Positions 1 to 23,241 of a DNA stretch of 23,241 bases are shown piece by piece; within the stretch, counting starts at the first letter, position 1; each line of letters opens with the position of its first letter. The notes under the pieces are model-generated. The model had not been told where the DNA came from. It did not search any database and saw only the letters and a program-made list of their open reading frames with translations. The stretch spans positions 1-23,241 of the forward strand of contig CAJINV010000041.1 in the NCBI GenBank assembly GCA_905178155.1. Direction: 5' to 3'. The stretch comes from Amoebophrya sp. A120. Its lineage: Eukaryota; Protista; Dinoflagellata. Both the position numbers and the translations under genes were made by a program.

Positions 1-86
1 ACCTCTGCCGCCGGCGGAGGTTACATTTGGAGGCGCACCTCCCGGGCACACCAGAATTCTAACCCGCACCGTCGGCGCGGGTCATA

Positions 87-1493: not shown

Positions 1494-1761
1494 ATATCAA
1501 ATGCAAATATGGCTGGGTCTGGAAAAATGCATAAGTTTGTCATGCATATTCTGCAGCAGGTAGCTGGTCTGGAATGCAAATCGGACAACACAGATTTTAC
1601 GAACGCTTCATGATGCCGACCCCGCATAAAAACTTCGCCCTTCACGTAGCTAAAATTGAGCTGCTTCTAGTACTCCCGCAACATAGATTTTTGGCTGCTC
1701 CAGAATCAGCATGACAAGTTGGAAGCCTTCCAGACCCACACGTGTTTGCATTGGATAAGTC
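1494..1761. mobile_element. MITE-like/introner element, family B
   Basis: Left arm TATCAAATGCAAATATGGCTGGGTCTGGAA..TTGTCATGC; right arm GCATGACAA..TTCCAGACCCACACGTGTTTGCATTGGATA; DR GTC. Interior resembles 12196-12467. Host reading frame unresolved. Confidence 0.75.
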
Positions 1762-1821
1762 CGAGGCAATACTCCATCATTTCCGTGCGCGGCCTGCTAA
1801 TCCGTCGTCACCAACCAAGAG

Positions 1822-4591
1822 ATGCCGTCCTCACCAACAAGAAATCAGAATGTCAACGACCTGGATCGAGGGAATCCGTTCGTGAAAAGAACTAATCCAG
1901 GAAACGAGCAGAAAGGCGAACACAACGACGGCAGGTAAAACTCTTGACAGTGATAGATTTTCATTCAAACTTATACTGCGCAAATGTCGAAGACTTTTGG
2001 TGTCCAAGGATGCAACAGGAACGTCGAATGCCCAAACTCCAACCGCAGATTGCCAAAAAACCCGCTCGGATGGGGAACACCACCGCCAGCATTGAACCCA
2101 TCTGGGGACAACCAACCAGGAGCTGCTGTGGTCCTGACAACAAATGCCACGTCCTCTTCCATCAGCAGAATCAGGCCACCGACACCCCGAGCCGCTCTGC
2201 AGAGATTATTCAACTGCCAACACCTTTTCAGCCCCACTTTCGTGCAAATTATTGAGCTTGTAAAAAAACGACACTTTATTTCAGCGTTACTTTGTCATGA
2301 CTTTTATACATAGTGAAGTTCGGATTGGAAAGGTGTTCGTTGGTATAAGACGGTGCCTCCGCGGGGCGAGGAGCCGTGCCTGCCGGCGGCGCTACGCCAA
2401 GGCCCAGGGGTTCAACGTATCGAAATATTTCTAAGTGACATTTCTTTTCTGCTACATCATGCACTGCATAAGTATTCGCCGCATGAATCATGAATGAAGA
2501 TATTTACGTATGTTTTCATGAAGATCCCCATGACTACACAATGCTTCAATAACTACCACAGCCTTCCGTCACCGTCATTGGCCGATCCACCGCGACGCAA
2601 CGTTTCCATTCCAAGGGCAGCGGGTTCCTCTGCAGCGGGTATGAAAATCAAATTACTCATGGCCGTCGGCTGCACGAGACAGGAATTTTCGACAGTTGTG
2701 TCATGCGAAAACTGTTACTAATCAGCGAGGACACCAAAAACTATATGTGTGGCGAAAGGAAATGCATACGGGCAAGTTTGGTTTTCATACGCCGCTCCTC
2801 TTCGAATCCGGTAATGGGAGGAAACGCCGTGTCTACGCAGTCTCTAATCCCAGCTCCCGGAACGAGGACGCCGATTATCCCACTCCAAAATCCCTCCAGG
2901 CCCCGTGCTGAGCCTGAGCCAGTCTGCCTTGCATGAAGCATGCATGAGTTAGATGTAAAAGTGAGAATGCGTCTCGACAGAAATTGGTTTGTAAAACACG
3001 AAAAAGCAAGTTTGTGTTGCGGGTTCGTGTTCAGCATGACAAATGTGCAGATGCGGGCTCGGGGTGGAGGCAATCTTCAGTGGCATGATAAGAACTGCTA
3101 CCTCCGCTTGGGGGGCACCGCAAAACCCGTTTGCGAACTCTACTAGTGCATCTTCCAGTTCTTCCAGTTCCTCCAGTTCCTCTAGTTCCTCCAGTTCCTC
3201 CGCTGCAGCTGGAACTCTGTCGAACTTGCGCACTATGCTATTGAAAAATGCTTGCATAGCGTATACTAGATTTGCCATGTAGTCATGTACAGTGCTCTCA
3301 TGCTGTGACGAATGATAGCAAAGAAAGATAAATCCTCGTACTGTGCAATCATTTTTTCCTATGACCCGACACGGATCGTCGCTGCTCTCCGGGCCCAATT
3401 ACCTGAGACAAACTGCATCTTCCGCGGCCAAGCACACAAGAGCCGTCGGAAGTACGGACGAACCGGCAGTACTAGCAGGTGAACTACAACAAGATGTCAG
3501 CATGCTAGATCCCATGCTGGTGGACGAAGAGCAGGGTGTCCCAGTGGGAGGTGTACAGCAGGTATGGAAACCGTTTTACACTGCGCAATGATGATGTAAT
3601 CGATGAGTAGATGAGGCTGGATGGAGATCAACTAAAATTTTTCCACATAAACCAAACTTTTTGAAAAAATATCAGGTCAACGACGCTGCAGCGGCCCCGA
3701 TGCAGGCCGACACTGCAATCGCCTTTGTCACGGAGGAGGATAGCGGAGGCTCGAAAAGCAGCAGTCCGAAACTGAGGCGGACTTTGCAGGCTGCACGAGA
3801 TCAGCGAAGAGCCGAGGCATTGTCGGGCACGTAATTTCTTGTTCATTTTCGCACCTATATCAAGAAAGGCTCTGGTGATTTCAAGCGAAAAAGAGCATAA
3901 AGCCAAACGGCATATGAGAAGCATACCGCATGATCCCGTTGATATGCTGTCGCGGTTCGGATTTCCGGTCTGACACATCAATCCAAAATACGTATAACAG
4001 GCCCGTCGGTTTGCCACAGCAGGAAGCGCCTCCGGCTCGAGGGATATCAAAACAGCCCCGCACAGTCGCAATGAATGCACGAGAAGGCTGGGAGAATGTA
4101 GTATATTTCTTGGTGTTGCATGTTGGAGGAGGTAGTGCTGTTGCGACAACAACTTTGCATCAGGACATTAGAGCAGGAACATTTTTGTTGCAAAGAAGAG
4201 TTTTGTCGTGCAAAAATCTATTTGATTGCCTCGGCTTCGATTGCGGCGGCCGTCTTTCGTTGCATACCCGCTGGAACCACGACCCGCAGACTCCAGTGAA
4301 GGAACCTCCCTCCTGCTCTCGTCCTCGTCGGACGAGGACAACAACAGCTCGTCCGCTATCCAAAGAAAGATGATTCGGTCCACCTACTGTAACAAAAAAA
4401 CATTTGTCACTTCGGCAGTGTCACTGTTGCTGCAGCGCATGACATGATCGAAATGAATGCGCAGCATTTTTATTTGTACGTGCTAGAAGAGAGCGCAGAA
4501 GGGTTTTGTGTTGCATGTGGACCAACAATTTTTCCCTCGTGATACCGCCAGTCGAAAGTGCGAACCCCCCAGTTTCCGGTGGACAGGTCGG
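1822..4591 (+). CDS. Probable 5' exons of gene 1 (Ser/Pro/Ala-rich, low complexity); start and some frames uncertain
   Basis: Short GC-richer open segments lie between IR/DR elements. In-frame joins include ...ATPRP|MTTQCF (DR CCCA), ...AGSS|SNPVMGG (DR TCCTCT) and VQQ|VNDAAAAP (GT-AG 3562-3675). ATG 1822 has an upstream in-frame stop. Several joins allow more than one frame. Confidence 0.4.
2206..2350. mobile_element. IR/DR-bounded putative non-canonical intron
   Basis: TTATTCAACTGCCAACACCTTTT pairs with GAAAGGTGTTCGTTGGTATAA; DR AGA. Confidence 0.65.
2407..2530. mobile_element. IR/DR-bounded putative non-canonical intron
   Basis: GGGGTTCA..ACGTA..AAATAT pairs with ATATTTACGT..TGAAGATCCCC; DR CCCA; open join. 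Confidence 0.55.
2632..2801. mobile_element. IR/DR-bounded putative non-canonical intron
   Basis: GTATGAAAATCAAA pairs with TTTGGTTTTCATAC; 6-bp DR TCCTCT; excision fuses the frames of ORFs 2494 and 2703. Confidence 0.75.
2875..3090. mobile_element. IR-bounded putative intron
   Basis: TTATCCCACTCCAAAATCCCTCCA pairs with TGGAGGCAATCTTCAGTGGCATGATAA; exact junction unclear. Confidence 0.55.
3150..3201 (+). repeat. 9-bp (TCCAGTTCY)n minisatellite, probably encoding poly-Ser
   Basis: About 5 tandem copies; reads as a Ser run on the + strand. Confidence 0.8.
3562..3675 (+). other. Canonical GT-AG intron (114 bp) with CAGGT duplicated at both ends
   Basis: CAG|GTATGG...ATCAG|GTC; in-frame join. 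Confidence 0.6.
4357..4548. mobile_element. IR/DR-bounded putative non-canonical intron
   Basis: TATCC..GGTCCAC..TGTAACA pairs with TGTTGCA..GTGGACC..GATA; DR CCGC abuts both termini. Confidence 0.75.
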
Positions 4592-4788
4592 TGCGGCACC
4601 AAATAACGACGCGCGGGTAAAAATATATTTTGCACGCATGCTGGCAAAGCCGGGACTTAATGAAGACGAAGATGAACCTATTTCTAATGTTTACGTAATA
4701 AACCTCATCATCTTCCCAATGTAATGCTTACAACGAAACACTCTTTCATCCTGTTGTTCACGACGAGCACAATAATACCACAGGTCGG

Positions 4789-7574
4789 AGTCGAGGTCCC
4801 ACTCTACACGGCGGAAGAACTGTTCTCCAGATTGTCCCCCATACCAACTGCAAATATTTGCGAGTCTGTCAAGTTGTCATTCTGCTTTACGGAAGATACC
4901 ATACACGGCGACCGATGCTCAACAAGATATGGTGACGCATTGAAAATCCTACGTGTTATTGCCTCCTCCGCATGATGAATCACAGGTGTGTATGACGGAG
5001 CAATCGTAGCTTGTTGGAAAGTAGTACATCATAAAACTTACAGCGCATTGCAAATGATCATGCAGCATTTTCCTAGCCCTCGAAATATTTGCAATGCATA
5101 TGCCGAGGAGCGGGGCCACTACGACGACTGGCAGACGAAGCTCGACGAGCTGGAGATATCATCACAGAAAGTAGCACCTTCACGTACTCGAAAAGACTTT
5201 GAAAGGCATGCTTTGTACGCACGAGTCGAATTGTCATGTTGTAGGAGACACGAGGCATACCTACCAGAGCCCACTTTGCAACGAGTAAGCACATGACAAA
5301 CACGCCTGTTGCGTGTCACGGAGCAACAGAAATCATGTGCGCAAGCAGATGCACTGTGCTAGCATTGCCGTACCACTGCAAGATGGTGAACTATCTTGGC
5401 CGAATATCTAGCACTATAAAGTCGCGTTCGAGAACGGCCGCGCCCGACTTTTTCCAACCATAGGACAAGATCAAGGAAGAAATCACGACAACCGCTGCCA
5501 AAGCAGAACACGTAGTCAAGCTGGCTGATGACGATGCAAAAGAATCCACGAGGGAACTGGCCAACGGAGAACGGTCCTGGACCAAGGACAAAGAGCTCCG
5601 GGTGCGCCGCAAAGACGAAAAGATCGAACTATGCCCAACAACGAGGGGACAGGCTACTATCGCGGTCGGGGTTAGTAGGTCTTCTACATTTGAAATGTTG
5701 CAGTCATGTGTACCAGGAAAAGCGACTCAAGCGATGGCATATTATTAAGGAGGCATAGTTATCTAATTTGCATGTATAGAAACATGGCTGTGAATTCCAG
5801 ATGAAGAAACGAAGACCACGATAGCTGATGGCTCTTTCTCCAGTCCATACATGGAGCAGAAGCTAAAGGCAGTCACGCCGAGACACTCAAACAGGCCGAC
5901 AGTCAAAACCCCTCGGGGGTCCTATACGCCCAAAGCTGGCCAAACTGCGGAAAGATATCATGCGGAAAAAAATGCAGTTCCTGAGGTATGAATCCATGTG
6001 TGTCATCGATCATGCAGAACAAGAAAAATATGCTTTGCAAAGGAGGACGACGCCTTGTTTCGCAGATCACGTCCGCAGCACTGCAGTGTGTAATGAGAGA
6101 TCCAGAAAGCCATATCCCAAAAAACAGCCGCCCCACCGCGGCACTGCTACTTCTTTCCGTGTGATAAATTAAAAGCAAAGGCCGAAGAGGCACGACGCAG
6201 AGCCAACCTGACGCCGCTGCAACTGGGCCAGGAGGATCGATATCAGTTTGCAGAATGTACCCGCTCCATATGTGGAAGAGTCTATTCAGTGACAGTCCTG
6301 CTGCGAGGCATGATGTACTTGTGAGGAATATAGCATGGAATGCACTTTTGTGTCCCCACCACCACAAGGAAAATGATGCGAATGGTTTGCCAAAGCGCTC
6401 GTCGGGGAGTGTCACTGGCAAGACATTCTTGCGTGAGGAGATAACAGCGGGGCAGCTTTCTCCTGGATAGTTAGGACAAGCAAATCAAAAAAATGGAACG
6501 AACCCGTAACAACATACGCGAGGAATACCCACCGGAATTTCTAACAGAACTCCGGGAGAAGAACGTCAAGCTGCAGCAAGCCCTGGAGGATGCAAAAGCG
6601 AAGCTCGCCAAGGCGAAAGAAGAGATCACAAAACTCCAGCAGAAACTGCGGGAAAAGGAAGCGGAGATAGAGAATCTACGTAGCAGACTCGGCAAATTGC
6701 AGCACGCCGTGCAAAAGTATGTTACTGATTTTTGATAACACAGCGCCAAAGATATGTTCGGCCATGGTGATGATCTGGCACAGAAAGAACACTGCAGAAC
6801 TTTGGCTGTGCAACATGCTAGGTTGTGTAACTTATGCGTCTCTAAGTACAAAGAATAAGAAACTCAAAGCAGCGAGCAACAGCACTATTATCTCCAAAAA
6901 TCCTACTATCTCTCCAGGCACTTCCAAATGAACCCGCGGTCTAGGCAGCAGTCGAAAGATATCAGTGAGGACTTGTACCGCAAGTTAAAATGGCCCCACC
7001 TCCTCGAACAGAAGCGTAGTGCTTTCCGCTAACTTCTGTTTATGACAGCATTCAGTTAGTAAAAAATCCATGACTTACTTCTTACTTATAGCAGGTTTGA
7101 GTGTGGCTGCATTGCCCGAGAACGTGCATGCATTCGAGGTCTGGAAACAAGAACTAGGCATGTATTCGAGGTGTGGGCCATTTTGCGGGACGATAACTAC
7201 GAGAAGAAGGAACGGGACATCGACACCGCGATGAAGAACAAAATCAACTCTGCGATCAAGCTCATATTTTCTGCCTGCTTCGAAGGTGGAGAGGACCACA
7301 AGCTGAACCACAAGGCCTACAAAGAGGCGAAACGCACGTTCCGGCGGGCGCGGGTAATACCTCTTGCAAAAGTATCGTAGACTACTTGTACAAATTGCAA
7401 CTCTGCATCGATGAATGCCTTTTCTTACTGTTTCCAGCGCTCTAAATTTCGCTACTTTCTGCGCCCAAATTTTTTATCGGGCAATTTGTACACCTACTGC
7501 GACCCTTTTGTAATGCATACGAAGAGGCGCTGTTGGAAAAGGTCGAGGATTCGAAGCGCAGGAAGATAGGGTGA
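4789..7574 (+). CDS. Gene 1 core: multi-exon coiled-coil protein of unknown function
   Basis: Removing 4841-5104, 5155-5465, 5639-5933, 5955-6175, 6237-6476, 6719-6985, 7015-7206 and 7354-7520 gives one frame: ...LFSRLSP|EERGHYDDWQTKLDEL|DKIKEEI...KIELCP|KLAKLRK|AKAEEARRR...GQE|DKQIKKMERTRNN...HAVQK|LKWPHLLEQK|KERDIDTAMK...RRAR|EEALLEKVEDSKRRKIG*. Contains the heptad-rich ORF 6493-6735. First and last joins are the least certain. Confidence 0.75.
4841..5104. mobile_element. Introner, family B
   Basis: TGCAAATATTTGCGAG pairs with CTCGAAATATTTGCA; short DR (CC). Confidence 0.7.
5155..5465. mobile_element. IR/DR-bounded putative non-canonical intron
   Basis: CGTACTCGAAAAGACTTT pairs with AAAGTCGCGTTCGAGAACG; DR GGA; join EL|DKIKEE. 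Confidence 0.7.
5639..5933. mobile_element. IR/DR-bounded putative non-canonical intron
   Basis: CGAGGGG pairs with CCCCTCG; 6-bp DR GCCCAA; in-frame join. Confidence 0.65.
5955..6175. mobile_element. IR/DR-bounded putative non-canonical intron
   Basis: TATCATGCGGAAAAAAATGCAGT pairs with ACTGCTACTTCTTTCCGTGTGATA; DR AAAG; join LRK|AKAEE. Confidence 0.8.
6237..6476. mobile_element. Introner, family A-like
   Basis: Left arm TATCAGTTTGCAGAATGTACCCGCTCC; right end ..GGATA; DR AGGA; join GQE|DKQIKKM. Confidence 0.75.
6719..6985. mobile_element. IR/DR-bounded putative non-canonical intron
   Basis: AAGTATGTTACTGAT pairs with ATCAGTGAGGACTT; DR AAGT. The nearby GT-AG choice (6717-6984) would create an immediate stop. 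Confidence 0.65.
7015..7206. mobile_element. IR/DR-bounded putative non-canonical intron
   Basis: CGTAGT..TCCGC pairs with GCGGG..ACTACG; 5-bp DR AGAAG directly flanks the IR. Confidence 0.8.
7354..7520. mobile_element. Short family-B-like introner (possibly GT..AC ends)
   Basis: TTGCAAAAGTATCGTAG..TGTACAAATTGC pairs with GCAATTTGTACA..CTGCGACCCTTTTGTAA. The right end matches 12449-12464 over 16 bp. Confidence 0.7.
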
Positions 7575-7984
7575 CCGCATCGGTGGTGAATGTGCTGACA
7601 ACTCTATTTGTAGTTGTGTGAGTAGTCATTTGCGTTTTCGAAGAAAACCGTCACATGAATTTACAAATCGGCATCTCTTTTGCTACCTATTGTCTAGTAG
7701 AAGAACTGACACTGCAGTTTGACATAATATCAGGAAGGGAACTGCAATACAATTTTCAAGAAAACAAAATTTTGGCTCGAGAGCCGACATCTATTCAGCA
7801 GCGCTAGCTTCAGATGAAAAAAATCACATTTAATTCTCCTAACTGTTTCAGAAAATTTTTTTTCCGGAAAGTGATGCAGGCACGAGGAACAAATCCTGGT
7901 TTGTACAAGCAGTAGTGTCGCCACTTGCGTACCTCGTTACAAAGTTACAGGCAAACAAATCAGCATAAGAAACTAAGACGTGAA

Positions 7985-10130: not shown

Positions 10131-10661
10131 ATGTTCGAAAGAAATTACATCTTTCAGCACTGTAACTTTTGTTGCGATCTTTCAAGAAAGAGAGCGAGTG
10201 GTCGAGCGAGTGCGATTAGACATGAATTTTGTTGTTGTGCGTTCTTCTACGAGTGTAGATGATAAAGCGTGAAGGACCGAGTAGTCTTGTAGAAGTGTGT
10301 GAGAAGAATTATATGTGTTTCACGTCAAACAACGCATCATTTGCTTTCCGTTCCGAGCCATTAAGACCATTTACAATCTACCATTTACGCCTCTCTCCAT
10401 CAGAAGCACTACTCAGTTTAGTTAGTTACCCCACCCCCCTCTACTGCCTGAGTATCAGCCCTGAATAGAAACCGACTATCGCACCGGCTACGTAGTACAG
10501 CAGATCTGCTAGTGTGCTTTTTTCGCTCGGAAAAAAAAATGGTTTTGTATTGCTGTTGAACAATTTTCTACTGCGCTTCCTGTAGTTTCGTTCAGAGAAT
10601 AATACTAGCTGTGGTGTCCTCGTTAGAAACTGTTCGAACCTGCGTCTAATACTCTTGCACT

Positions 10662-13600: not shown

Positions 13601-16600
13601 AAACGTAAGTGCCTCTTCTTTGTATAGAGACGTCAGGACGTCGATTTTCGCCACAATACAAAACTGACCTCGTCGACCACGACTACCCGGGTTTCATCGA
13701 GTGCTAACGTCCGACCACCACGTCCTGTTGTTATGCAAGTGAAAATGGATCAGTAAAGAGCCTCCAGGTTTCTGATGCAATTGATACAAATTGCTTAGCA
13801 AAATCTTTGAACGAAAATGTGATGCGCGCCGGTTCTTGATATGCTGTACTGCTGACGAATCTGACGGGCGTATCACCCCTCTCAGAATCGTGACCTAGGC
13901 TCTTTCCGATATACTTTCTCCACTTTCCATAACCGCACGTACTTCTACCGGAGCAACGGGAGCTGCGCAGGTACTCTTTTCTCAAATTGGTGTAATGCCT
14001 TTAGGCCATTTCATGGCAAAGTCAGTTTCTCGGTCTAATGCACCATAGTACTCATGAAAAAAAAAGCAACAACACAATTTCCAGAGCCGCGCCTCTCCTG
14101 CAGTAGGCCAAGGACATCGTGATGCCGCGGCACGGCAATTATCCGGACCGGTGACTAGTACTGCAAACCGAGTGCGATCTGACCCAGCCACTCTCAGAAC
14201 GGGTGCAAAGCGCCCTGTGGATGCCACCATGGTAGTCAGTGTAAAAACGCCCCCACTCCATTAAATACAGGACCAGAGAGGTCACTTTTTGCATCACAAA
14301 GCTGGGTGAAAATTTTGACGGCCTTTCAAGAAGAGTCTCGTGCAGTGCGGAATTTTTAGAAAGTGTAGTTTTGTGATGCAAAATGTGGCTTCTACTGGTC
14401 TTCGCTGTAGCCGAGATTCAGGAGAAGGCGCAGTTTGCATCACAAGTGGACACTTTTGAAAATGCCCGCACTGCACGAGACGCTTCTTGAAACAGCATCA
14501 AAATTTTCCCCGGCTACAGCAAAGACGAAGACCTGAGAGGTCACTTTTTGCATCACAAAGCTGCGCGGAAATTTTGATGCTGTTTCAAGAAGCTATCCGT
14601 GCAGTGCGGAATTTTTAGAAAGTGTAGTTTTGTGATGCAAAATGTGGCTTCTACTGGTCTTCGCTGTAGCCGAGGTTCAGGAGAAGCCGCAGTTTGCATC
14701 ACAAATGGACACTTTTGAAAATGCCCGCACTGCACGAGACGCTTCTTGAAACAGCATCAAAATTTTCCCCGGCTACAGCAAAGACGAAGACCTGAGAGGT
14801 CACTTTTTGCATCACAAAGCTGGGCGGAAATTTTGATGCTGTTTCAAGAAGCTATCCGTGCAGTGCGGAATTTTTAGAAAGTGTAGTTTTGTGATGCAAA
14901 ATGTGGCTTCTACTGGTCTTCGCTGTAGCCGAGGTTCAGGAGAAGCCGCAGTTTGCATCACAAATGGACACTTTTGAAAATGCCCGCACTGCACGAGACG
15001 CTTCTTGAAACAGCATCAAAATTTTCCCCGGCTACAGCAAAGACGAAGACCTGAGAGGTCACTTTTTGCATCACAAAGCTGGGCGGAAATTTTGATGCTG
15101 TTTCAAGAAGCTATCCGTGCAGTGCGGAATTTTTAGAAAGTGTAGTTTTGTGATGCAAAATGTGGCTTCTACTGGTCTTCGCTGTAGCCGAGGTTCAGGA
15201 GAAGCCGCAGTTTGCATCACAAATGGACACTTTTGAAAATGCCCGCACTGCACGAGACGCTTCTTGAAACAGCATCAAAATTTTCCCCGGCTACAGCAAA
15301 GACGAAGACCTGAGAGGTCACTTTTTGCATCACAAAGCTGGGCGGAAATTTTGATGCTGTTTCAAGAAGCTATCCGTGCAGTGCGGAATTTTTAGAAAGT
15401 GTAGTTTTGTGATGCAAAATGTGGCTTCTACTGGTCTTCGCTGTAGCCGAGGTTCAGGAGAAGCCGCAGTTTGCATCACAAATGGACACTTTTGAAAATG
15501 CCCGCACTGCACGAGACGCTTCTTGAAACAGCATCAAAATTTTCCCCGGCTACAGCAAAGACGAAGACCTGAGAGGTCACTTTTTGCATCACAAAGCTGG
15601 GCGGAAATTTTGATGCTGTTTCAAGAAGCTATCCGTGCAGTGCGGAATTTTTAGAAAGTGTAGTTTTGTGATGCAAAATGTGGCTTCTACTGGTCTTCGC
15701 TGTAGCCGAGGTTCAGGAGAAGCCGCAGTTTGCATCACAAATGGACACTTTTGAAAATGCCCGCACTGCACGAGACGCTTCTTGAAACAGCATCAAAATT
15801 TTCCCCGGCTACAGCAAAGACGAAGACCTGAGAGGTCACTTTTTGCATCACAAAGCTGGGCGGAAATTTTGATGCTGTTTCAAGAAGCTATCCGTGCAGT
15901 GCGGAATTTTTAGAAAGTGTAGTTTTGTGATGCAAAATGTGGCTTCTACTGGTCTTCGCTGTAGCCGAGGTTCAGGAGAAGCCGCAGTTTGCATCACAAA
16001 TGGACACTTTTGAAAATGCCCGCACTGCACGAGACGCTTCTTGAAACAGCATGAAAAATTTTCCCCGGCTACAGCAAAGAACGTCATGTGGTTTGCTACA
16101 TCGGTTCGAATAGTTTGCGGACTCTGCGCGAAAAGCTTGGAGACGTAACGTCCTCGGCATGCTTAGCTATGAAAGATGCTGCAATGCATCCTGATAAAAT
16201 GTCTTCCATAAGAATCCGCATGAAAGATCATCTGTTGGACATGCAAATCTGCATGACAGTGTTGGACCGGGTACGTTTTTACACAGAATATCAAACCGAA
16301 CCCCAAGCTCATACCAGTCGCGGTGCCGCAGCCGCAGACTCGGTGACACCGAATGCCGAACGGGCTCAGCCGGGCGCCAACGTGGTGGCAGGGCGTGATC
16401 AGAGCAGCAAACACCGTGGTGAAATCAGCGAAACAAGATCATGTATGCAACCGGAGTCACAGGTTGAAAAAATTTTATAAGCGGCATGCAGTCGCATAAA
16501 ATCACGTTCATGTTTATGGTGTAAGTACGGGAATATGTACAAGTGTTTGTGACCTCACGGCATTTATTCAAAATTGAACTTCAGGTTAGTACCTCCCGTG

Positions 16601-19600
16601 CGGCAAGTAGCCGGCAGCTGTTGACACCAATCGCGGAGTCCCCAGCACAGGAGTCTTCCTGGATGAACAAGAGTTCCATCAGGAACCAATTGTCACTGGA
16701 CCAGGTTTTTATTTTTTTGTGTAATGCGAGATGATAAGAAACTAGAAGAGCCCGATCATTCAATATTTTGGGTCCAGCATTAGCGGTTCGTGAGGAACAG
16801 TCTGATGCATCATGAACAATCTGATGCTCCACTGAAAATGTAAAGAACATATTGTTCCTGCAACACATCAATCAGATCGTCGCACAAACGGAAGCTGCTT
16901 TACAACCGCGCCCCGGATCATCTTCGTCCAGTTCAGGCGACTCTATCACGAGCAAAAAGTTCGTTTTTCTCCGACACTAGACGCGAGCTCAATCGTGCTC
17001 TTGGACTTTTGAAATCACTAGTCAATGGCTGCATGATGCAAAAGGACCATAAAGATGTACTGAAGCGATGACGCCTTTCGAGCGCATCATTGTGAAAGCG
17101 CATCCTGATTTCTGTTTCACACACAACTTTCTCCACATAGCGTATATCTGCATCCTACTGCTGTGCTTTTTTGCTGTGTGGCATGCACGCTGATGTGTGG
17201 CCAAGCACCTTGCAGCGGACATTCGTTTTTTCTAGGGGAAAAACGTGTTTTCCTCGTGATACAAGACGCCGGACTGATTGAAGACGACGACAAACCCATC
17301 GTGCCCGGAGGAAAAATACGAAATGCAAATATGTCTGGGCCTGGAAAGTTCTGATGCTTAACTGTGCTTGACGAAAGGACCTCCGAATTCAGCCAAGCAT
17401 GACAAGTTTGCAGAGCGGTTTTTCATACGCAGCCTGCATGAAAAACTTTGTTTTTGTAATGACAAAAGACGCTGCGGCGTTTGTAGGTCACGCAATACAG
17501 ATTTCACCTGAATGTAAGGCCAGCGTCACAGGTTTCAGCGTCGCAGACCCAGACATCGTTGCAATCCATAAAAATCCTTGAAGTGGTTCCGGGACATGCA
17601 CGTGCAATTAGACCAGAGCTTGTCTTATGGAAGTGAAAGCATCTCGCCGTGGTCAGCATAACTACTGCATGTGATTTCCGGGTTGTAGCAAAGATTTTGT
17701 TTTGAAACTTTCTCCCGATTCGCATGAGTATGATGCTCTGCGTCTGCCCAGACACGACTAGAAATACAAATGAAAAACATGCCTGCGAAATTGAAAGAGC
17801 CAGGGTTATTCTGAGTAAAAACATTCCCACCCCAGAGTTGTCATGCAAATCTGCATGCCAGAAAAGTTTCTCATGCGAAGCCCCATGAGAGGCTTTTTCT
17901 CGTCGTGTTTTGGGATTTGTGATGCTAGAAATAGCATGACAAGCTAGACTTGTGATGCTGCTGAACTAGCTAAACAGCATCACGCTACGAGGACAGAGTT
18001 GTCATGCGAAACAACCAAAGTTGGCCGATTTGTCTAGCAAATTGCTCACCATGTTGACTCTGGTATGGGGACGTTTTTACTCAGGATAAGGGTGGAAAAT
18101 TGTTCCTTTCATACGAAGATGAGCCGGGCGGCTATCACAAAACAAAATTTGCTCTTGAGTACCCTACACCACAGCGAAAGCTACGAAAATGAACTAATTT
18201 ATTTCGAGGTAGGCCAGTTCACAAAATCGCTCTCGCAGTACAGGACAAAAGACGAAAGTCAGACACTCTCTCCTAGGTGGTTACTGTGAAGGTTCAAGAA
18301 AAATTACGATTCGGAGATGCTAGTATATTCTTGAATGAAAGAGTCACTATTTGTATTTTTCATCCGAGAACCGACTTTGCCGCCAGTACTGGAAGGGCAT
18401 TATTACTTTGCAGTACTTTTGCAGGTGAAGGACCGCATGCTTGTTGCATGGCCTGAGCGATCCAGGTTTATCTGCGGTGCAGGGTTCAAGAAACTTTTTC
18501 CAACTGATACCCCGCACCCCCGTATCGTCTGCAAAAACGTCCCCACCCCAGAGTCAAAATGGACATATTGCAACAAAACCAGTCAACAGGTTTTGTTGGC
18601 TGTCGCGCATGACAGATTCGTAATTGCATTGCAATCGGACTATGTAGCTAGTGGTGCTGCCGCATTAAAACTCGCTTTATCTCATCCTAACGCTCGGGCA
18701 TTACAAGGATCTCCGAAAAAACATTAGCTGCAAATGCTGGCGTGAGAAAATTTGTACTAGGCTTTATCGATTTGCATCTGCAAATCTGGGGTGGGGACGT
18801 GTTTGCACAGAGTAACGGAATGTCTCGTTCCTCCAGCAGGACGCCTCGGTCCTCGGTGAGTATAACCCGCTCAGGTGTTACAAATCTCAAACGCTACAAT
18901 GATAAAGAACGAGCATGACACGTCCTGAATCCGCGAATCACACGAGATGAAGAATTTAGCGAAATTTGTACTTCTGCGAAAAGCGTCAGGCCTCCTATCC
19001 TCCTGCTGATGCTCTTCATGCAAGACAAAATCCAGATTTTGCTGTAACGTTTGAGATGGTAACAGCTGACCGGGCCATACCGGCGCGTCGATCGTCCTGA
19101 ACCAGTCCGCCGTCGATCTGGACGAGCGGGTGATTCGTCAGCAGAGTATCCAAAGTGAATGTAGTGCTGGTGGTTAATTTGTATGTTTGTAATTTTCCAC
19201 TGTCGTTCATCTATGTATTGAGTACTACGAGGAAGGGCACAACAAGAGCAAGAAAGGGTTATGCTGCACTATCAGCGTCAGTTGTCGTTACGGACGATGT
19301 GACAGTTGAATAAAACACTGAAGTACACCAACACGCTTTTACTTTGGATAGGCGATTTGAGCAAAGTACTGTTTTTTCTCGGATTTGGATGGAAATTTTT
19401 TGCACTAGCAGATAGAAAATGGTTTGCATGACAGCACTTTCCTGCCACCGACATAACGTTAAAAGTGCGGTAATTTACTTTTGCGTGGGGAGAAAAACGC
19501 AGCTTGCACTCGTGCTGTCCAGTTTTGTAGCCACAATTTAGACTATTGTGTGAAGAATGGCTTGTCATGCAGCAGAAGCTATGATTGAATAACAATAAAT

Positions 19601-20800
19601 CTTCTGGTTTGTCGACCCATCAAACCACAATGCGCAGATGCCGGACGCCGATGCTCCGCAAGGACCGCTGGAAGGGGAAGAAGCATACCATAATGCAAAC
19701 CCCCTGCACTTGGTGCTCCAATTGAAGTTTGTCTTGCTGCGAGATTTGTGTACACAAGACGGGAGGTTATGCCACCAGAAGGCATGAGCAACGGCGTGAA
19801 AAATTGGGTAGCAGCTAGCCGCTGTCATGGTCTGCTCGTGTGACAAAGATAGCTGCCATATGCCCAGAACTGCATGACAAAGATGGCAATTGCCGACTTG
19901 CGGCCACAAATCAGCATGGAAAATTTACATTTTGAGTATCGAGATGGGACATTTTTCTGCACGATAAAGGTCCAAGCTTCGCCGACAGCTGCTCGATCAG
20001 CGATGTGGAGCCCAGTGCTTCGTCGGTCCCGCAGGTATACTTGGTAGTCTTTTAAAGAGCGCGCTGCTAGTGTGGTTTTTTTATGGATGCACCCAATCGC
20101 AAAGCGCGCTAGTCATCCTAGACAAAGTTTGCACATTCATAGCACACCACATTGCGTTTTGGATACGAAGTGACTACAAAAAAATAACTCAAGGCCGCCA
20201 CCCGAGGGGACCCGTACAAGATACGCATTGCAAATATGTTTCAGTCTGGAAAGGTTTAACCAAAATTGCGTGTTGAGCATTTCTGAAGAAAAATCTGTAT
20301 TGCATAAGAACAAGAAAACGCCACAATTTCGTTATGAAAAGTCGCAATTTGTAATGCACACTGAGCATCAGAAAGGAGGCGTTTAGGAAATCTGCTTGTG
20401 CCATGCTACACTGCATTTAAAGGCGCACTCGCACTCCATCATGACCATTCAGCATTACATGTTTCCAGCCCGAATCATATTTGCAATGCATGCAAGACAC
20501 CTACCGACGATTTCGATTGGATCAACGCACTTAACATATTCGATTGAAAAGCTGTGCTCGTGTAAGTTTGTGATGCGGAAAGTGCGTCTCAGCTAGTTGT
20601 ACACGATCTATTTTTACAGCGAACAGTCTCACTACTTCCTCCGCATTCATGAAGATGGGTTTTTAATATTATCTGACGCAAAACAACCCTGTAAGGATGG
20701 GATTCACCTTGCGAGAAAGTTATACTAGCACACTTTTTCTTTTGGATAACACCAGAGCATCCTGGGCCGAAACGACGAAGTACCCGTGGCTGCTCCCGTA
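10662..20800 (+). CDS. Gene 3: about 28-exon protein of unknown function (roughly 670 aa; disordered S/T/A/P-rich N-terminal part, more ordered C-terminal part); 3' end uncertain
   Basis: One frame from ATG 10662 after removing about 23 IR/DR elements and 4 GT-AG introns: MVSSPP..AAEK|SLSHFG..VAST|PDPTR..NS|GASSSS..APR|SALLMADPTVEADKD|VSMAV..GGV|DNINL..SG|AFPLD..PPR|TSTG..AQ|SRASP..DAT|EPQAH..ESQ|VSTSR..DQ|IVAQ..SGD|AGLIEDDDKPIVPGGK|ILEVVPGH|ACEIERAR|VENC..RA|HP|RNVSFLQQ..YNP|GHTGASIVLNQSAVDLDERVIRQQ|RRFEQ|IFWFVDP..EEA|WDIFLHD..PQ|AATRGDPYK|TPTDDFDWINALN|TRASWAETTKYPWLLP. Weakest join is at about 13520/13660 (1-nt DR). Confidence 0.7.
10691..10726 (+). repeat. 2 x 18-bp coding tandem repeat with palindromic core
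   Basis: CCGCATCGATGCAGCGGA twice (RIDAAD/RIDAAE). Confidence 0.85.
10731..11034. mobile_element. IR/DR-bounded putative non-canonical intron
   Basis: CTCCCTGGGATC..GCAGTAC pairs with GTACTGC..GATTCTGGGGAG; 6-bp DR GAAAAG. Confidence 0.65.
11164..11331. mobile_element. IR/DR-bounded putative intron
   Basis: TATGCATTG left arm; DR TACT; in frame. A GT-AG alternative (11159-11335) also keeps the frame. Confidence 0.5.
11369..11682. mobile_element. Introner, family A
   Basis: TATCCTGTCGAAAAACGTACCC pairs with GGGTACGTTTTCATACATGATA; DR GCG. Confidence 0.8.
11772..12017. mobile_element. Introner, TATCGC family
   Basis: TATCGCAAGAAAA..GTCTCAACTT pairs with AAGTTGAGAC..TTTTCTCGCGATA. Confidence 0.8.
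12016..12082 (+). repeat. 22-bp coding direct repeat, 45-bp period (NLPFNN/NLLFNN)
   Basis: CCAATTTGCYGTTCAACAACAG at 12016 and 12061. Confidence 0.8.
12196..12467. mobile_element. Introner, family B
   Basis: About 45-bp imperfect IR TGCAAATACGTCTGGGTCTGGAAG..TTGTCATGC; DR AGAT. Confidence 0.85.
12512..12768. mobile_element. Introner, family B
   Basis: TATGCATTGCAAAAGTGTCT pairs with AGACACATTTGCACTGCACA; DR GGAC. Confidence 0.85.
12909..13128. mobile_element. Introner with a perfect 20-bp IR
   Basis: AAAAAACTGTTTCACTGTGA (12918-12937) pairs with TCACAGTGAAACAGTTTTTT (13095-13114); DR GTGGA. Confidence 0.85.
13258..13479. mobile_element. IR/DR-bounded putative non-canonical intron
   Basis: TATCCTACAGAAAAGT pairs with ACTTTTCTTCTGGTA; DR GTGC. 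Confidence 0.65.
13523..13658. mobile_element. IR-bounded putative intron
   Basis: TATTGTGGTGAAAA pairs with TTTTCGCCACAATA; DR unclear. Confidence 0.7.
13724..13940. mobile_element. IR/DR-bounded putative non-canonical intron
   Basis: GTTATG..AAAGAGCCT pairs with AGGCTCTTT..CATAAC; DR CACGT. Confidence 0.7.
13971..14084 (+). other. Canonical GT-AG intron (114 bp)
   Basis: CAG|GTACTC...TTCCAG|AGC; in frame. Confidence 0.55.
14229..16297. mobile_element. Family-A introner expanded to 2069 bp by an internal satellite
   Basis: GTGTAAAAACGCCCC (about 14239) pairs with GGGTACGTTTTTACAC (about 16269); DR ACC; join DAT|EPQAH in frame. Confidence 0.75.
14271..16080. repeat. 7 x 259-bp tandem satellite; each unit is a foldback
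   Basis: Units start at 14271, 14530, 14789, 15048, 15307, 15566 and 15825. Inner copies are near-identical. Each unit has a roughly 73-bp imperfect IR. Confidence 0.97.
16463..16584 (+). other. Canonical GT-AG intron with CAGGTT duplicated at both ends
   Basis: CAG|GTTGAA...TTCAG|GTTAG; fuses the frames of ORFs 16088 and 16543. Confidence 0.65.
16705..16875 (+). other. Canonical GT-AG intron (171 bp)
   Basis: CAG|GTTTTT...ATCAG|ATC; in frame. Confidence 0.55.
16942..17267. mobile_element. Introner, TATCRC family
   Basis: TATCACGAGCAAAAAGTTCGTTTTTC pairs with GAAAAACGTGTTTTCCTCGTGATA; DR GAC. Confidence 0.8.
17318..17575. mobile_element. Introner, family B
   Basis: TGCAAATATGTCTGGGCCTG pairs with CAGACCCAGACATCGTTGCA; DR AAAAAT. 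Confidence 0.85.
17600..17782. mobile_element. IR/DR-bounded putative non-canonical intron
   Basis: AGACCAGAGC pairs with GCTCTGCGTCT; 6-bp DR ACATGC. Confidence 0.55.
17807..18093. mobile_element. Introner, family A
   Basis: TATTCTGAGTAAAAACATTCCCACCCCAGAGT pairs with ACTCTGGTATGGGGACGTTTTTACTCAGGATA; DR AGGGT. Confidence 0.85.
18131..18514. mobile_element. IR/DR-bounded putative non-canonical intron (384 bp)
   Basis: TATCA..TCTTGAGTACCCTACACCACAG pairs with CTGCGGTGCAGGGTTCAAGA..TGATA. Confidence 0.7.
18523..18817. mobile_element. Introner, family A
   Basis: TGCAAAAACGTCCCCACCCCAGA pairs with TCTGGGGTGGGGACGTGTTTGCA; DR CG. Confidence 0.85.
18870..19072. mobile_element. IR/DR-bounded putative non-canonical intron
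   Basis: TGTTACAAATCTCAAACGCTACA pairs with TGTAACGTTTGAGATGGTAACA; DR CCG. Confidence 0.8.
19147..19351. mobile_element. IR/DR-bounded putative non-canonical intron
   Basis: TATCCAAAGT..GTGCTGGTG pairs with CACCAACAC..ACTTTGGATA. Confidence 0.8.
19366..19599. mobile_element. IR/DR-bounded putative non-canonical intron
   Basis: TACTGTT pairs with AACAATA; DR AAA; join FEQ|IFWFVDP. Confidence 0.55.
19687..19945. mobile_element. IR-bounded putative non-canonical intron
   Basis: TACCATAATGCAAA pairs with TTTACATTTTGAGTA; short DR; junction ambiguous. Confidence 0.5.
20035..20193 (+). other. Canonical GT-AG intron (159 bp)
   Basis: CAG|GTATAC...CTCAAG|GCC; in frame. Confidence 0.5.
20222..20497. 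mobile_element. Introner, family B
   Basis: GCATTGCAAATATG..CTGGAAA pairs with TTTCCAG..CATATTTGCAATGC; DR CAAGA. Confidence 0.85.
20537..20751. mobile_element. IR/DR-bounded putative non-canonical intron
   Basis: TATTC..GAAAAGCTGTGCT pairs with AGCACACTTTTTC..GGATA; DR TAACA. Confidence 0.75.
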
Positions 20801-20939
20801 TAAAAGTGATTACTTCACGTGCTGCAGTTTGATCATGCATGATGGCAATGCTTTATTTTTTTACCGTGCATGTGGATTTACCGCTGAAAAATGGAAATTG
20901 GTTCCCGTACTACAACTCCAGGTAGCTGGGTCTTACGCA

Positions 20940-22712
20940 ATGGGACTGCTGACTGCTGATGGGATATCAAGCGCAGAGATGCTTAAATGGTTCATCTCGC
21001 AGAGGTGGTCAATGTATAAAAGATTTGATGTCTTGCATTTTTGCAGCGTGGCGGTCCATGACGAATTCAGTATATTTTTCCACCATTATGAGAGATCGAT
21101 GAAAGATGATGTAGCAGTGTTCTGGAACTAAATCCTGACCGTCATGGGCTACAACCAATGTCGCACGTTACTACCAACTCGAGAGGAACCAGGGAGATTT
21201 GCAATGCATAGACGCCGCTGGCGGTCAACACGGTGAACCGATACGTCGACGAAACCATGAATCTGTCTATCGCAATGAAAAAGTCCCGACCCGATAAAAG
21301 AACTCCGGAATCTCGTAGCTGTCGTGCATGGCAAGTTTTACCCGGCATGCCTGTTCCGCAGGAGTAGGGGAGAAGGCGCTTCTACTCGGCTGAGTTGAGG
21401 CATGAGATGAACTTGTGGCAAAGTAAGCCGTCTGTGACTCTTCGCTCTCCCATGCAGAACACGCTGACCGTTGGTAAACGGGATCTAAAATCGCAAACCG
21501 CATTGGAGCATCTGGTGGGGCGAGGGATTTTTCATCGCGATACTGCACCGCGACGTCGAAAACAAGTTTTTCACCCTACAGCAGGAGAAGTCCTCCTTCG
21601 TACAGCAGCTGAAGGACAAGAAAGCAGCAGTCGGCATACGCACGTGAAAAACAAGAAAGCCCAGCCCATCTTTAAAGAAGAGGGCACTTTCATTATTCTT
21701 GGTATACCAAAGATAGCCCATCTGTGCAATCAGGAATGCACATGCATAGGAACAACATATGCAGTTTCGCAAAGTGATTGCAGTTTGGAGCCGTCTTCTG
21801 TGCCCCTCCGCATGAAAAAGAAGACAGAGGACGCAGATTTCCCTTTTCGATCACGACACGAAGATCTATCAGCTCGTTGTTGTGCCAAACAACGGCGGGC
21901 TTGAGAATGATGATCTTGACCCTGGGAGGGGGGGCTTTTGTTTTTCGGCATACGCCAACGCCACCGTCGCGGTGCGAGCAAAAAGAGGAGCTGTCCAGGA
22001 GGCACTCCTGGAAAAAAAAGAAGCCCTATCCAAGGCGGAGGACATGGAAGGAAAGAAACGTGCGAAGGATGCAGAACTCGAGACGGCGAGAAAGGCGGCG
22101 GAGGACCAGGAAACCAAAGAGAAGAAAATGGCCGACACGCTAGCCGGGCGACAAAACGAAGCTGCTAGAATCCAACAAGAGATCGCGATACGCATCGAGA
22201 AAAACACTGGCATGACAGATAGGTAGAGCAGCTGATGCGCAGGGTTGTCTCGTTCGAAAGGAACATAGCAACCTACTTCGGACCTTCATATTGTGAATCC
22301 CCCAACATGCATTCGCTGTATCTGAAAGAGGCAGCTCCAGTTGCTTTAGAATTCATCGGTGACTGCCTTTTTACGTAGTAGAGTGAGCGTTTTTCCGAAG
22401 TATAGGCCGATCTCGAAAAACTGGATTTCACCTCCAAAAGAAGAGGCTATGCTGTTGAAAAGTGTAATGCCCTGCTGACTATGGAGAACAATAGGCATGC
22501 ACAGACAAAGCGAAGCTGAGGACGTACGTGTATATGGCTGCGGCTGTATCAGACAACATGCGCACCTTTGCATTTCCAAGATGCTATATGGTACAGCTTA
22601 CACATTTTGCCAGGATACGCATTCGTACAGGCAAGACCCGTCGAAGCCGAGAACCCCAGCTCGCGAACTCGCCAATACTACCACAGGGAGAATGAAACCC
22701 TCGCTCCTGTAA
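20940..22712 (+). CDS. Gene 4 (or continuation of gene 3): multi-exon coiled-coil protein of unknown function
   Basis: Joins MGLLTADG|TPLAVNTVNRYVDETMNL|HRDVENKFFTLQQEKSSFVQQLKDKK, plus a charged helical exon in ORF 21882-22226. Later junctions and both ends are uncertain. Confidence 0.55.
20965..21212. mobile_element. Introner, diverged family B
   Basis: TATCAAGCGCA..TGGTTCATCTCG pairs with CGAGAGGAACCA..TTTGCAATGCATA; DR GA. Confidence 0.7.
21266..21545. mobile_element. Introner, TATCGC family
   Basis: TATCGCAATGAAAAAGTCCC pairs with GGGATTTTTCATCGCGATA; DR CTG. Confidence 0.85.
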
Positions 22713-23012
22713 AAAATACAAAGCGAAGCATGTTGGTCATGTGATCTTGCAGTTACACGAAGCTTGGGCGCTTGTATTTACATGCATTTTCAGACTCAGA
22801 AACTTGGGGGCGTATAAGTATGCATGTTCAGACTGTATGGCGTCAGAAGCTCGCCCTTTGGGCTTCTGACTTTACAGCCGATGACGTTGCAGGCATTGCG
22901 GGCTCGAGGCCATTTTCAAATCTATCAGCAAAAACGCACGCGAAAACAAAATCAAGCAGGAGGAGTATCATGTGGATAAGCACGCCCACACCAAACAATT
23001 CGCGGGCCAAGC

Positions 23013-23241
23013 CGAAATCGACGTCCGGGCCGACGTCGATTTCGCGAGCCGGGCCGAAGTCGGACTTTCTACCTGCCCGGCTTTGCAGCTTCAAGTCGGA
23101 CCGGCAGAGGGGGAGCGAGGCGCCGGGGCCAGGCGCTTCTGCTTGGACGAAGCAATCGGACTTTGCAGCTGCAAGTCGGACCGGGAGATGGGGAGGCGCC
23201 GGGGCCCGGCGCCTCCGCTCGGACCAGCCGGACTTTGCAGC
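23013..23241. repeat. GC-rich palindromic tandem repeat (72-80 bp period), truncated by the window end
   Basis: CTTTGCAGC at 23081, 23161 and 23233. Hairpins CGAAATCGACGTC-N6-GACGTCGATTTCG (23013-23044) and GGAGGCGCCGGG-G-CCCGGCGCCTCC (23192-23216). Confidence 0.85.

What the first reader, a model, noticed from the sequence alone, without database searches (positions are those of the whole stretch)
1494..21545. Genes tiled by about 40 foldback elements that behave as non-GT-AG introns (introner-type splicing system)
Seen: repeated units of DR - IR ... IR - DR, about 120-390 bp long, separated by short GC-richer gaps. Deleting each unit plus one DR keeps a single + strand frame across many consecutive junctions, and most junctions cannot be slid to GT-AG. 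Established: IR/DR-bounded non-canonical introner elements occur in Amoebophrya, and MITE-derived or structured non-canonical introns occur in Fritillaria and euglenids. The excision mechanism of the Amoebophrya-type introns is, to my knowledge, unresolved. Inference: here removal is guided by end-pairing and terminal motifs, either at RNA level or by DNA excision.
Basis: partly seen in the sequence, partly recalled or inferred. Interest (0 to 1): 0.92.

Follow-up and report, generated by a model that had tools for sequence, protein, structure and literature searches.

The report
Fixed-register hairpin introns in Amoebophrya
Two genes of a parasitic marine dinoflagellate (Amoebophrya A120) are interrupted by 40 small hairpin-ended elements that lack normal splice signals, yet nearly all are absent from the transcript or the annotated protein; such introns are already known, but here every cut that could be pinned falls one base before and four bases after the hairpin, a simple code that likely lets these elements jump into genes without harm.

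Summary
Real, and a known system: the window matches Amoebophrya sp. A120, whose inverted-repeat 'introner' introns were described in 2021. Two + strand genes carry 40 non-GT-AG introns and 13 GT-AG introns. Transcript contigs skip them and a DNA contig keeps them, so removal is at RNA level.

The repeat is decayed in most elements, and 2 of its 4 example joins are wrong.

One fixed register fits all 40: N-TAY...ATA-NNNN, cut 1 nt before the 5' arm and 4 nt after the 3' arm. 1+4 equals the 5-bp target duplication (91 of 119 family copies). The cut follows transcript direction, not element orientation. Written in advance, the rule matched the annotated protein at 14 of 17 sites. The 2021 paper calls these borders variable or unknown.

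Invariant T+2/A+3 and A-7 point to a relaxed spliceosome (about 55%); a Euglena-like separate machinery is the main rival. This scan noted similar hairpin introns in other genomes.

The parts
1822..7574 (+). Gene 1 CDS span, 707 aa, low-complexity then coiled-coil-like; 13 non-canonical + 6 GT-AG introns in the CDS; 3' UTR unspliced to about 8820
   Evidence: 14 RNA joints and exact 2952-nt bookkeeping of contig X4/8; no homologue from two exon queries
10662..22964 (+). Gene 2 CDS span in the window = residues 1-842 of P0002 (1075 aa, Amoebophrya sp. A120, unnamed; no Pfam); 26 non-canonical + 7 GT-AG introns; continues beyond the window
1494..1761 (+). Non-canonical intron, 268 nt, in 5' UTR of gene 1
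   Evidence: adjacent pieces in RNA contig X4/7; slidable by 3
2206..2351 (+). Non-canonical intron, 146 nt
   Evidence: rule + open frame only
2639..2793 (+). Non-canonical intron, 155 nt
   Evidence: scanner; RNA piece starts at 2794 (side 80); frame
2875..3091 (+). Non-canonical intron, 217 nt
   Evidence: RNA joint
3233..3370 (+). Non-canonical intron, 138 nt, non-sliding, 3' arm decayed to ACC
   Evidence: RNA joint, both pieces 0 mismatches
4044..4270 (+). Non-canonical intron, 227 nt
   Evidence: RNA joint
4356..4548 (+). Non-canonical intron, 193 nt (a 4-nt look-alike DR would give 192)
   Evidence: RNA joint
4841..5104 (+). Non-canonical intron, 264 nt
   Evidence: RNA joint
5156..5466 (+). 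Non-canonical intron, 311 nt; retained form also in an RNA contig
   Evidence: RNA joint; X1 record 2
5629..5853 (+). Non-canonical intron, 225 nt; retained form also in an RNA contig
   Evidence: length required by contig bookkeeping; X1 record 3
5955..6170 (+). Non-canonical intron, 216 nt
   Evidence: RNA joint
6240..6473 (+). Non-canonical intron, 234 nt, non-sliding, TSD 1/5
   Evidence: RNA joint
6975..7199 (+).
   Evidence: RNA joint
7357..7523 (+). Non-canonical intron, 167 nt
   Evidence: RNA joint
10820..11031 (+). Non-canonical intron, 212 nt
   Evidence: RNA piece ends at 10819; P0002
11370..11679 (+). Non-canonical intron, 310 nt
   Evidence: RNA piece starts at 11680 (side 91); P0002 allows one position only
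11771..12019 (+). Non-canonical intron, 249 nt, non-sliding
   Evidence: RNA joint; P0002
12194..12465 (+). Non-canonical intron, 272 nt, abundant family, TSD 4/5
   Evidence: P0002; family depth in DNA
12511..12767 (+). Non-canonical intron, 257 nt, same family in opposite orientation
   Evidence: P0002; alignment scores
12908..13127 (+). Non-canonical intron, 220 nt, TSD 5/5
   Evidence: P0002
13258..13497 (+). Non-canonical intron, 240 nt
   Evidence: P0002
13522..13662 (+). Non-canonical intron, 141 nt
   Evidence: P0002
13731..13935 (+). Non-canonical intron, 205 nt
   Evidence: P0002
14232..16294 (+). Non-canonical intron, 2063 nt, holding a 7 x 259-bp palindromic tandem array (14271-16080)
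   Evidence: RNA loose end at 14231 reads into 16295; P0002 allows one position only
16943..17265 (+). Non-canonical intron, 323 nt
   Evidence: advance prediction; P0002, one position only
17316..17574 (+).
   Evidence: advance prediction; P0002
17625..18117 (+). Non-canonical intron, 493 nt: older 206-nt element with a young one nested in it
   Evidence: P0002; not predicted in advance, fits the rule
17807..18088 (.). Nested young element, perfect 5-bp TSD
   Evidence: many relatives in the fetched loci
18132..18513 (+). Non-canonical intron, 382 nt, followed by an 8-nt exon (18514-18521)
   Evidence: advance prediction; P0002, one position only
18522..18818 (+). Non-canonical intron, 297 nt, reversed relative of 11370-11679
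   Evidence: advance prediction; P0002
18860..19083 (+). Non-canonical intron, 224 nt
   Evidence: advance prediction; P0002, one position only
19146..19354 (+). Non-canonical intron, 209 nt, TSD 0/5
   Evidence: advance prediction; P0002, one position only
19685..19970 (+). Non-canonical intron, 286 nt
   Evidence: advance prediction; P0002
20221..20496 (+). Non-canonical intron, 276 nt, TSD 5/5
   Evidence: advance prediction; P0002
20536..20752 (+). Non-canonical intron, 217 nt
   Evidence: advance prediction; P0002
20964..21214 (+). Non-canonical intron, 251 nt
   Evidence: advance prediction; P0002
21267..21546 (+). Non-canonical intron, 280 nt
   Evidence: advance prediction; P0002, one position only
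21636..21956 (+). Non-canonical intron, 321 nt
   Evidence: advance prediction (weak score); P0002
22188..22408 (+). Intron, 221 nt; fits the rule, but a GC-AG cut 3 nt upstream gives the same protein
22447..22621 (+). Non-canonical intron, 175 nt, TSD 0/5
   Evidence: advance prediction; P0002
22678..22930 (+). Non-canonical intron, 253 nt
   Evidence: P0002; not predicted in advance, fits the rule
1935..6917 (+). Six GT-AG introns of gene 1: 1935-2048, 2417-2561, 3562-3675, 3831-4000, 4617-4783, 6717-6917
   Evidence: last four are RNA joints; first two from frame
11159..20921 (+). Seven GT-AG introns of gene 2: 11159-11335, 13971-14084, 16463-16584, 16705-16875, 19366-19637, 20035-20193, 20798-20921
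   Evidence: P0002

Best explanation
These are transposon-like elements with TAT...ATA inverted ends and a 5-bp target duplication that are cut out of the pre-mRNA at a fixed register, 1 nt before the 5' arm and 4 nt after the 3' arm, most likely by the cell's own spliceosome with relaxed first- and last-base requirements. Shown: RNA lacks them and DNA keeps them; the register; the 5-bp duplication; independence from duplication decay and from element orientation. Follows from these: since 1+4=5, a fresh insertion in either orientation would be removed without changing the message. Inferred: the terminal stem would bring the ends together in place of the undetected U1 and of AG recognition; T+2/A+3 would be read as in the GT-A donors of the same genes; A-7 would be the branch nucleotide; the 3' cut would be measured from it. 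Odds: RNA-level removal 0.95, fixed register genome-wide 0.8, spliceosome as catalyst 0.55.
For: RNA vs DNA: 15 listed joints in two transcript-like runs, none of them in the DNA-like run, whose 10,726-nt contig is continuous. Register: mean pairing 12 of 20 at offset 3 vs 4.0-6.5 at the other 20 offsets over 12 RNA joints. All 4 non-sliding RNA joints fit, as do the 7 gene-2 junctions where P0002 allows one position. Held-out checks: a hidden 225-nt skip and exon starts 2794 and 11680; 14 of 17 advance predictions, 24 of 27 in the full model. TSD: perfect at 5 bp in 91 of 119 family copies (at most 2 for k=3,4,6-10) and in 114 of 169 other-family elements. In the 20 elements with TSD match <=1/5, TA is kept in 20, A-7 in 19, T-6 in 20, A-5 in 19. 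The mirror cut (4 before, 1 after) is excluded at 30 of 40 junctions (11 by RNA, 19 more by P0002), including the opposite-orientation relatives 11370 and 18522. For the spliceosome: 11 of 13 canonical donors are GTA, sharing +2/+3 with all 40. A-7 is kept in 39 of 40 while its partner T+4 is kept in 30 (Fisher p=0.007, post hoc), and is A in all 10 cases where +4 is not T. Canonical introns have A at -7 in 9 of 13 and AC at -7/-6 in 7 of 13 (post hoc). Precedents: branch point anchored at a fixed short distance from AG in Yarrowia, Trichomonas and Giardia (PMC2483917, section 9); spliceosome retuned for non-GT/AG introns in Fritillaria (bioRxiv 2025.08.15.670264, abstract); A120 keeps 83 of 89 spliceosomal proteins and lacks a detectable U1 (PMC7789003).
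Against: No lariat, branch or inhibitor data; the catalyst is inferred from sequence statistics on 53 introns. The A-7 asymmetry and the canonical AC signal were found after looking; p=0.007 does not survive correction for 14 positions. A bulk count of AC..YAG spacing in 131 related loci showed no excess at -7. The +1/-1 pairs take 13 different combinations, hard for a standard 3' splice-site pocket (recalled). A-7 would have to leave the stem to branch. 10 of 40 folded introns, several of them RNA-proven, show register pairing <=0.05 in the predicted ensemble. 3 of 17 advance predictions failed. Most of gene 2 rests on an annotated protein built from transcript alignments, not on reads seen here. 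The length of RNA contig X4/7 is not accounted for exactly by my model of exons 2049-2638. One strain, two genes, both on the + strand.
Confidence: 0.55

Rival explanations
1. Same fixed register at RNA level, but cut and joined by a separate, non-spliceosomal machinery (structure-reading endonuclease plus ligase, or a domesticated transposase-like protein) that recognises the TAT:ATA stem end, as proposed for Euglena nonconventional introns.
For: The code has the same form as Euglena's N3-CDG...CHG-N5-6 (paired triplet, fixed spacers, free terminal bases; PMC12501133), where the authors suggest non-spliceosomal factors and cite circular products. All three TAT:ATA pairs are best kept in the oldest elements (19-20 of 20). 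Free +1/-1 bases. No polypyrimidine-AG.
Against: The two arms are not treated alike: A-7 to G (still a wobble pair) occurs once, T+4 to C (a mismatch) nine times. Donor +2/+3 and position -7 coincide with signals of the GT-AG introns in the same genes. Hybrid-looking cases exist (20035-20193, 22188-22408).
Confidence: 0.37
2. Programmed DNA excision in a life stage not sampled (like TA-bounded ciliate IESs, recalled).
For: TAY inverted ends and a target duplication are transposon marks; the DNA run checked may be the assembly's own source and one stage only.
Against: No joined form in the DNA run at the 15 listed joints; retained-intron contigs at depth 6-10 beside spliced ones at 49-78 in RNA; the cut follows transcript direction rather than element orientation; GT-AG introns alternate with these in the same contig.
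Confidence: 0.03
3. Joining is guided by the direct repeat itself (slippage or reverse-transcriptase template switching at DR-flanked hairpins), so the joints are artefacts or DR-dependent.
For: Hairpins flanked by direct repeats are a classic template-switch substrate (recalled); 7 of 40 have 4-5 of 5 matches.
Against: 20 of 40 have <=1 of 5 matches; 4 RNA joints have no shared base; at 4356-4548 the cut ignores a 4-nt look-alike repeat; spliced forms dominate in two samples and give 707- and 842-residue frames.
Confidence: 0.03

Closest known systems
Introner elements / non-canonical introns of Amoebophrya sp. A120 (Farhat et al. 2021, PMC7789003)
   Same: Same organism by the P0002 hit; IR motif TAT + 7 nt + AAA; mean length near 240 nt; 3-5 nt DRs (5-bp example in the Fig. 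S19 legend); mixed with GT-AG introns.
   Different: The paper's Fig. [quoted passage not shown] Here one register (1 and 4) fits all 40, explains the 5-bp TSD, and holds for decayed elements that an IR/DR filter would miss.
A120 TIR introner families in Gozashti et al. 2025 (PMC12130899, Dataset S2)
   Same: TIR DNA elements of about 250-320 bp with mostly non-canonical sites; TSD 5 called for some families; one family with an integrase-like ORF.
   Different: In the 22 of 58 A120 rows I saw, TSD calls run from 2 to 5 or NA and no common cut rule is given.
Euglena nonconventional introns (PMC12501133)
   Same: Paired terminal triplet at fixed spacers from both cuts, free terminal dinucleotides, MITE origin proposed, coexistence with GT-AG introns.
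   Different: Triplet CAG/CTG at +4/-6..8 with spacers 3 and 5-6, versus TAT/ATA with spacers 1 and 4; purine preference after the 3' cut not seen here; unrelated lineage.
Fritillaria borealis non-canonical introns (PMC11282704 passages; bioRxiv 2025.08.15.670264 abstract)
   Same: TIR/TSD-derived introns removed despite non-GT/AG ends.
   Different: They keep preferred dinucleotides (AG-AC, AG-AT) taken from a TAC target; here terminal bases are free and the TSD has no sequence bias.

Membership tests
Amoebophrya A120 introner elements (IE/NCI) | Host is Amoebophrya A120 | tested here: met
   842 residues of the gene-2 model identical to P0002, named A120
Amoebophrya A120 introner elements (IE/NCI) | Absent from mRNA, non-GT-AG ends | tested here: met
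   RNA joints; no slide to GT-AG
Amoebophrya A120 introner elements (IE/NCI) | Terminal IR starting TAT, 7 variable nt, AAA | tested here: met
   TAT 30, TAC 9, TAG 1; AAA at +12..14 in 24 of 40; TTT at -17..-15 in 28 of 40
Amoebophrya A120 introner elements (IE/NCI) | 3-5 nt direct repeat at the borders | tested here: met
   met as a decaying 5-bp TSD: 77 of 200 flank matches vs 157 of 640 beside them; 4-5 of 5 in only 7 of 40; 91 of 119 perfect in family copies
Amoebophrya A120 introner elements (IE/NCI) | Repeated families in the genome | tested here: met
   summed contig depth up to 78,890 vs 26 at family ends in the DNA run; relatives within the window
MITE / non-autonomous TIR transposon | TIRs, fixed TSD, no coding capacity | tested here: met
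MITE / non-autonomous TIR transposon | Cognate autonomous transposase | tested here: inconclusive
   six long copies examined; one with a 415-codon frame has no Pfam or Atlas match; no genome held
U2-type spliceosomal intron | GT/GC...AG ends | tested here: not met
U2-type spliceosomal intron | Lariat at a branch adenosine, U2/U6 dependence | not testable with these tools
   only indirect: A-7 in 39 of 40
U12-type intron | RTATCCTT donor (recalled) and minor snRNAs | tested here: not met
   NTATC resemblance only; +5 C in 23 of 40, no conserved CTT; minor snRNAs reported absent
Euglena-type nonconventional intron | N3-CDG...CHG-N5-6|R signature | tested here: not met
   different triplet and spacers; same logic, not a member
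Programmed DNA-eliminated sequence | Element-free DNA form | tested here: not met
   not seen in the one DNA run laid; other life stages not tested

The most novel reading that the evidence does not exclude
Amoebophrya A120 runs a second splicing code matched to one transposon chemistry: NTAY as donor, an adenosine at -7 inside the 3' arm as branch point, and a ruler to a sequence-free 3' cut. The 1+4 nt it removes equal the 5-bp duplication, so any TAT-ended element landing anywhere in a gene, in either orientation, becomes a perfect intron at once. The reported 'variable' splice sites would then be an alignment effect of sliding within the duplication.
Probability: 0.45. Interest if true: 0.8.

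Novelty: already known. Interest (0 to 1): 0.55.

Why it matters
How Amoebophrya removes tens of thousands of introns with no splice dinucleotides is stated as open in the 2021 genome paper. A fixed register turns that into direct tests: branch mapping at one named base, a genome-wide offset table from existing RNA-seq, and rule-based re-annotation. It would also explain how a parasite tolerates an element roughly every 500 bases in these genes, and would parallel the Euglena code in an unrelated lineage.

Tried and rejected
1. No whole genome is held, so no genome-wide count, snRNA check or transposase search was possible.
2. The 2026 raw-read run X7 touched 2 of 30 bins, only the family end at about 12193-12230, with fixed differences; it gives no evidence on these genes. 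The run search listed no holder on record as RNA. I treat X1/X4 as RNA because they skip GT-AG introns and fall to about 0 between the genes.
3. Sliding joints onto look-alike DRs (192 nt at 4356, 139 nt at 3233) was rejected by the RNA lengths.
4. The offset grid cannot separate removed lengths that differ by 3; RNA lengths fix 5.
5. Wrong calls of mine: 17657/17771 and 17805/18093 as separate introns, 20034/20191, 19935/20146, and the canonical acceptor at 11296. Weak scanner hits in the 3' UTR (7746, 7928, 8475) are not spliced.
6. Bulk AC..YAG spacing in 131 loci: no excess at -7.
7. IR quality vs TSD match: rho 0.27, p 0.09.
8. No homologue for two gene-1 exons, no Pfam for P0002, no Rfam hit in 1-14260.
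9. BHB/tRNA-type geometry (recalled) was rejected because the duplicated flanks are direct, not complementary.
10. Roy et al. 2023 (PMID 36543167) is not held.
Full report
WHAT THE WINDOW IS. An exon at 12021-12191 finds one protein, P0002 (1075 aa), named 'unnamed protein product [Amoebophrya sp. A120]'. A 33-intron model of 10662-22964 translates to exactly its first 842 residues. A second gene at 1822-7574 gives 707 aa. Both lie on the + strand. No family was found for either. No whole genome is held.

RNA AGAINST DNA. Reads and contigs of four coded runs were laid on 1300-14260. Runs X1 and X4, which are flagged only as guessed RNA, share all 15 listed joints; 81 further rows were not shown. 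Four joints are GT-AG and 11 are not. These runs drop to about 0 depth between the genes. X4 record 7 gives a twelfth non-canonical joint near 1490/1759, and an X1 loose end joins 14231 to 16295. X5 has flat depth 26, one 10,726-nt contig from 1495 to 12220 with no differences, and none of the 15 joints. X5 may be the assembly's own source, so it is one DNA sample and not independent. Low-depth X1 contigs retain two of the introns. Exon lengths sum to exactly the 2952 nt of X4 record 8 and reproduce all five listed piece coordinates, once one hidden 225-nt skip is added. This argues against hidden letters at joints flagged 'between: not known'.

THE RULE. Aligned on the RNA joints, every non-canonical intron reads N-TAY ... 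ATA-NNNN. Over the 12 joints, pairing between the ends averages 12 of 20 at offset 3 and 4.0-6.5 at the other 20 offsets; offset 3 is best or tied in 10 of 12. Four joints cannot slide, and all four fit. A scanner trained on these 12 finds 30 elements at score >=20 (10 are training cases) against 2.1 in 15 shuffles. Checks not used in training: the hidden skip must be 225 nt and the rule gives 5629-5853, 225 nt; piece lengths 80 and 91 put exon starts at 2794 and 11680, as the scanner predicted.

ADVANCE TEST. Seventeen junctions were written down in advance. No reads were laid on them, so they were tested on P0002: 14 agree and 3 do not. In the full pre-made model, where six junctions were placed by eye with help from the frame, 24 of 27 agree. 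Two misses resolve into one 493-nt skip that itself obeys the rule and contains a nested young element. One is a GT-AG intron 3 nt longer. A further intron revealed by P0002 (22678-22930) also fits. P0002 comes from a transcript-based pipeline (PMC7789003 section 25): it is independent of my rule but resolves only amino acids. It allows a single cut position at 7 of 26 junctions, and all 7 are the rule's.

THE DIRECT REPEAT. It is a 5-bp target duplication that decays. Ends were chosen by IR only. Flanks match perfectly at 5 bp in 91 and at 3, 4 or 6-10 bp in at most 2, with no sequence bias. Elements of other families in the same loci: 114 of 169. In the window only 7 of 40 keep 4-5 of 5 matches and 20 keep 0-1. 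In those 20, TA, A-7, T-6 and A-5 are kept in 20, 19, 20 and 19, while the deeper stem has fallen to 0.40 paired. So the terminal triplets are under selection and the repeat is not needed. Since 1+4=5, removing a fresh element restores the original sequence on either strand.

ORIENTATION. Related elements sit in both orientations: global scores forward/reverse are 0/50 for 12511 vs 17316, -18/18 for 11370 vs 18522, and 68/13 for 1494 vs 12194. The mirror cut (4 before, 1 after) is excluded at 11 junctions by RNA and at 19 more by P0002, including 11370 and 18522. The asymmetry therefore follows the transcript, which a DNA-level excision would not be expected to do (inference). Both genes are on one strand, so this needs a minus-strand check.

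MECHANISM. I commit to a relaxed spliceosome at 0.55. All 40 share +2/+3 with 11 of 13 canonical donors. A-7 is kept in 39 of 40 while its partner T+4 varies in 10, always uncompensated; wobble-friendly A-to-G is rarer (1) than pair-breaking T-to-C (9). Canonical introns have A at -7 in 9 of 13 and AC at -7/-6 in 7 of 13. These are post hoc counts on small numbers, and a bulk test on the related loci showed no such excess. Predicted register pairing is >=0.3 in 23 of 40 folded introns and <=0.05 in 10, and 0 in all 12 canonical ones (first model), so a protein or RNP clamp is likely needed for old copies. The Euglena-type separate machinery remains at 0.37.

LITERATURE SEEN. PMC7789003: abstract, passages, sections 10 and 25 whole, supplement legends. 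[quoted passage not shown] Its figures (3, S19, S21, S23) could not be seen and may show part of the register; the S23 legend gives 1-5 nt. PMC12130899: passages, supplement passages, 22 of 58 A120 rows; files 13-14 not searched. TSD calls run from 2 to 5, so a 5-bp TSD is not new. PMC12501133: abstract, passages, discussion. PMC2483917: abstract, section 9. PMC11282704, PMC12005148, PMC11453091: passages. PMC12621601 and bioRxiv 2025.08.15.670264: abstracts. Roy et al. 2023 was not available. Searches returned no paper that, in the parts I read, states a fixed 1/4 register or a branch candidate for Amoebophrya; subscription papers are not covered.

VERDICT. The feature is real and already known as a class and in this strain. 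What is added is a single positional code, well supported in two genes, that links cut geometry to TSD length and names one base to test. Interest 0.55.

Noticed in passing
L046:476-2934 (minus; contig JACKZZ010017813.1): A 2459-bp member of the abundant family with a perfect 5-bp TSD carries a 415-codon open frame (1511-2758) with no Pfam or Atlas match and no second copy among the fetched loci: cargo gene or unknown mobility protein.
   Followed up: partly
window 14271-16080: Seven 259-bp tandem units, 98% alike and internally palindromic, sit inside one 2063-nt non-canonical intron that is still cut at the rule's register; whether the copy number is real or an assembly effect was not checked.
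   Followed up: partly
window 17625-18117: Element nested in an element; whether the inner one is removed first (twintron-like) is unknown.
   Followed up: partly
window 18118-18131, 18514-18521, 19355-19365: Micro-exons of 14, 8 and 11 nt between introns, all present in P0002.
   Followed up: yes
window 20035-20193 and 22188-22408: Hybrid-looking introns: a rule-type cut and a GT-AG or GC-AG cut lie 3 nt apart; possible intermediates between the two classes.
   Followed up: partly
window 87-294 and 23081-23224: 47-bp x 4.4 palindromic array followed by a 45-bp inverted repeat (324-413); 76-bp x 1.8 repeat, apparently inside the last intron of gene 2.
   Followed up: no
window 12193-12230: Raw RNA reads of run X7 (same species label, does not cover these genes) carry this family end with three fixed differences, so the family may not be strain-specific.
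   Followed up: no
window 9218-10008: A low-depth unspliced 791-nt RNA contig between the two genes, with no long ORF.
   Followed up: no
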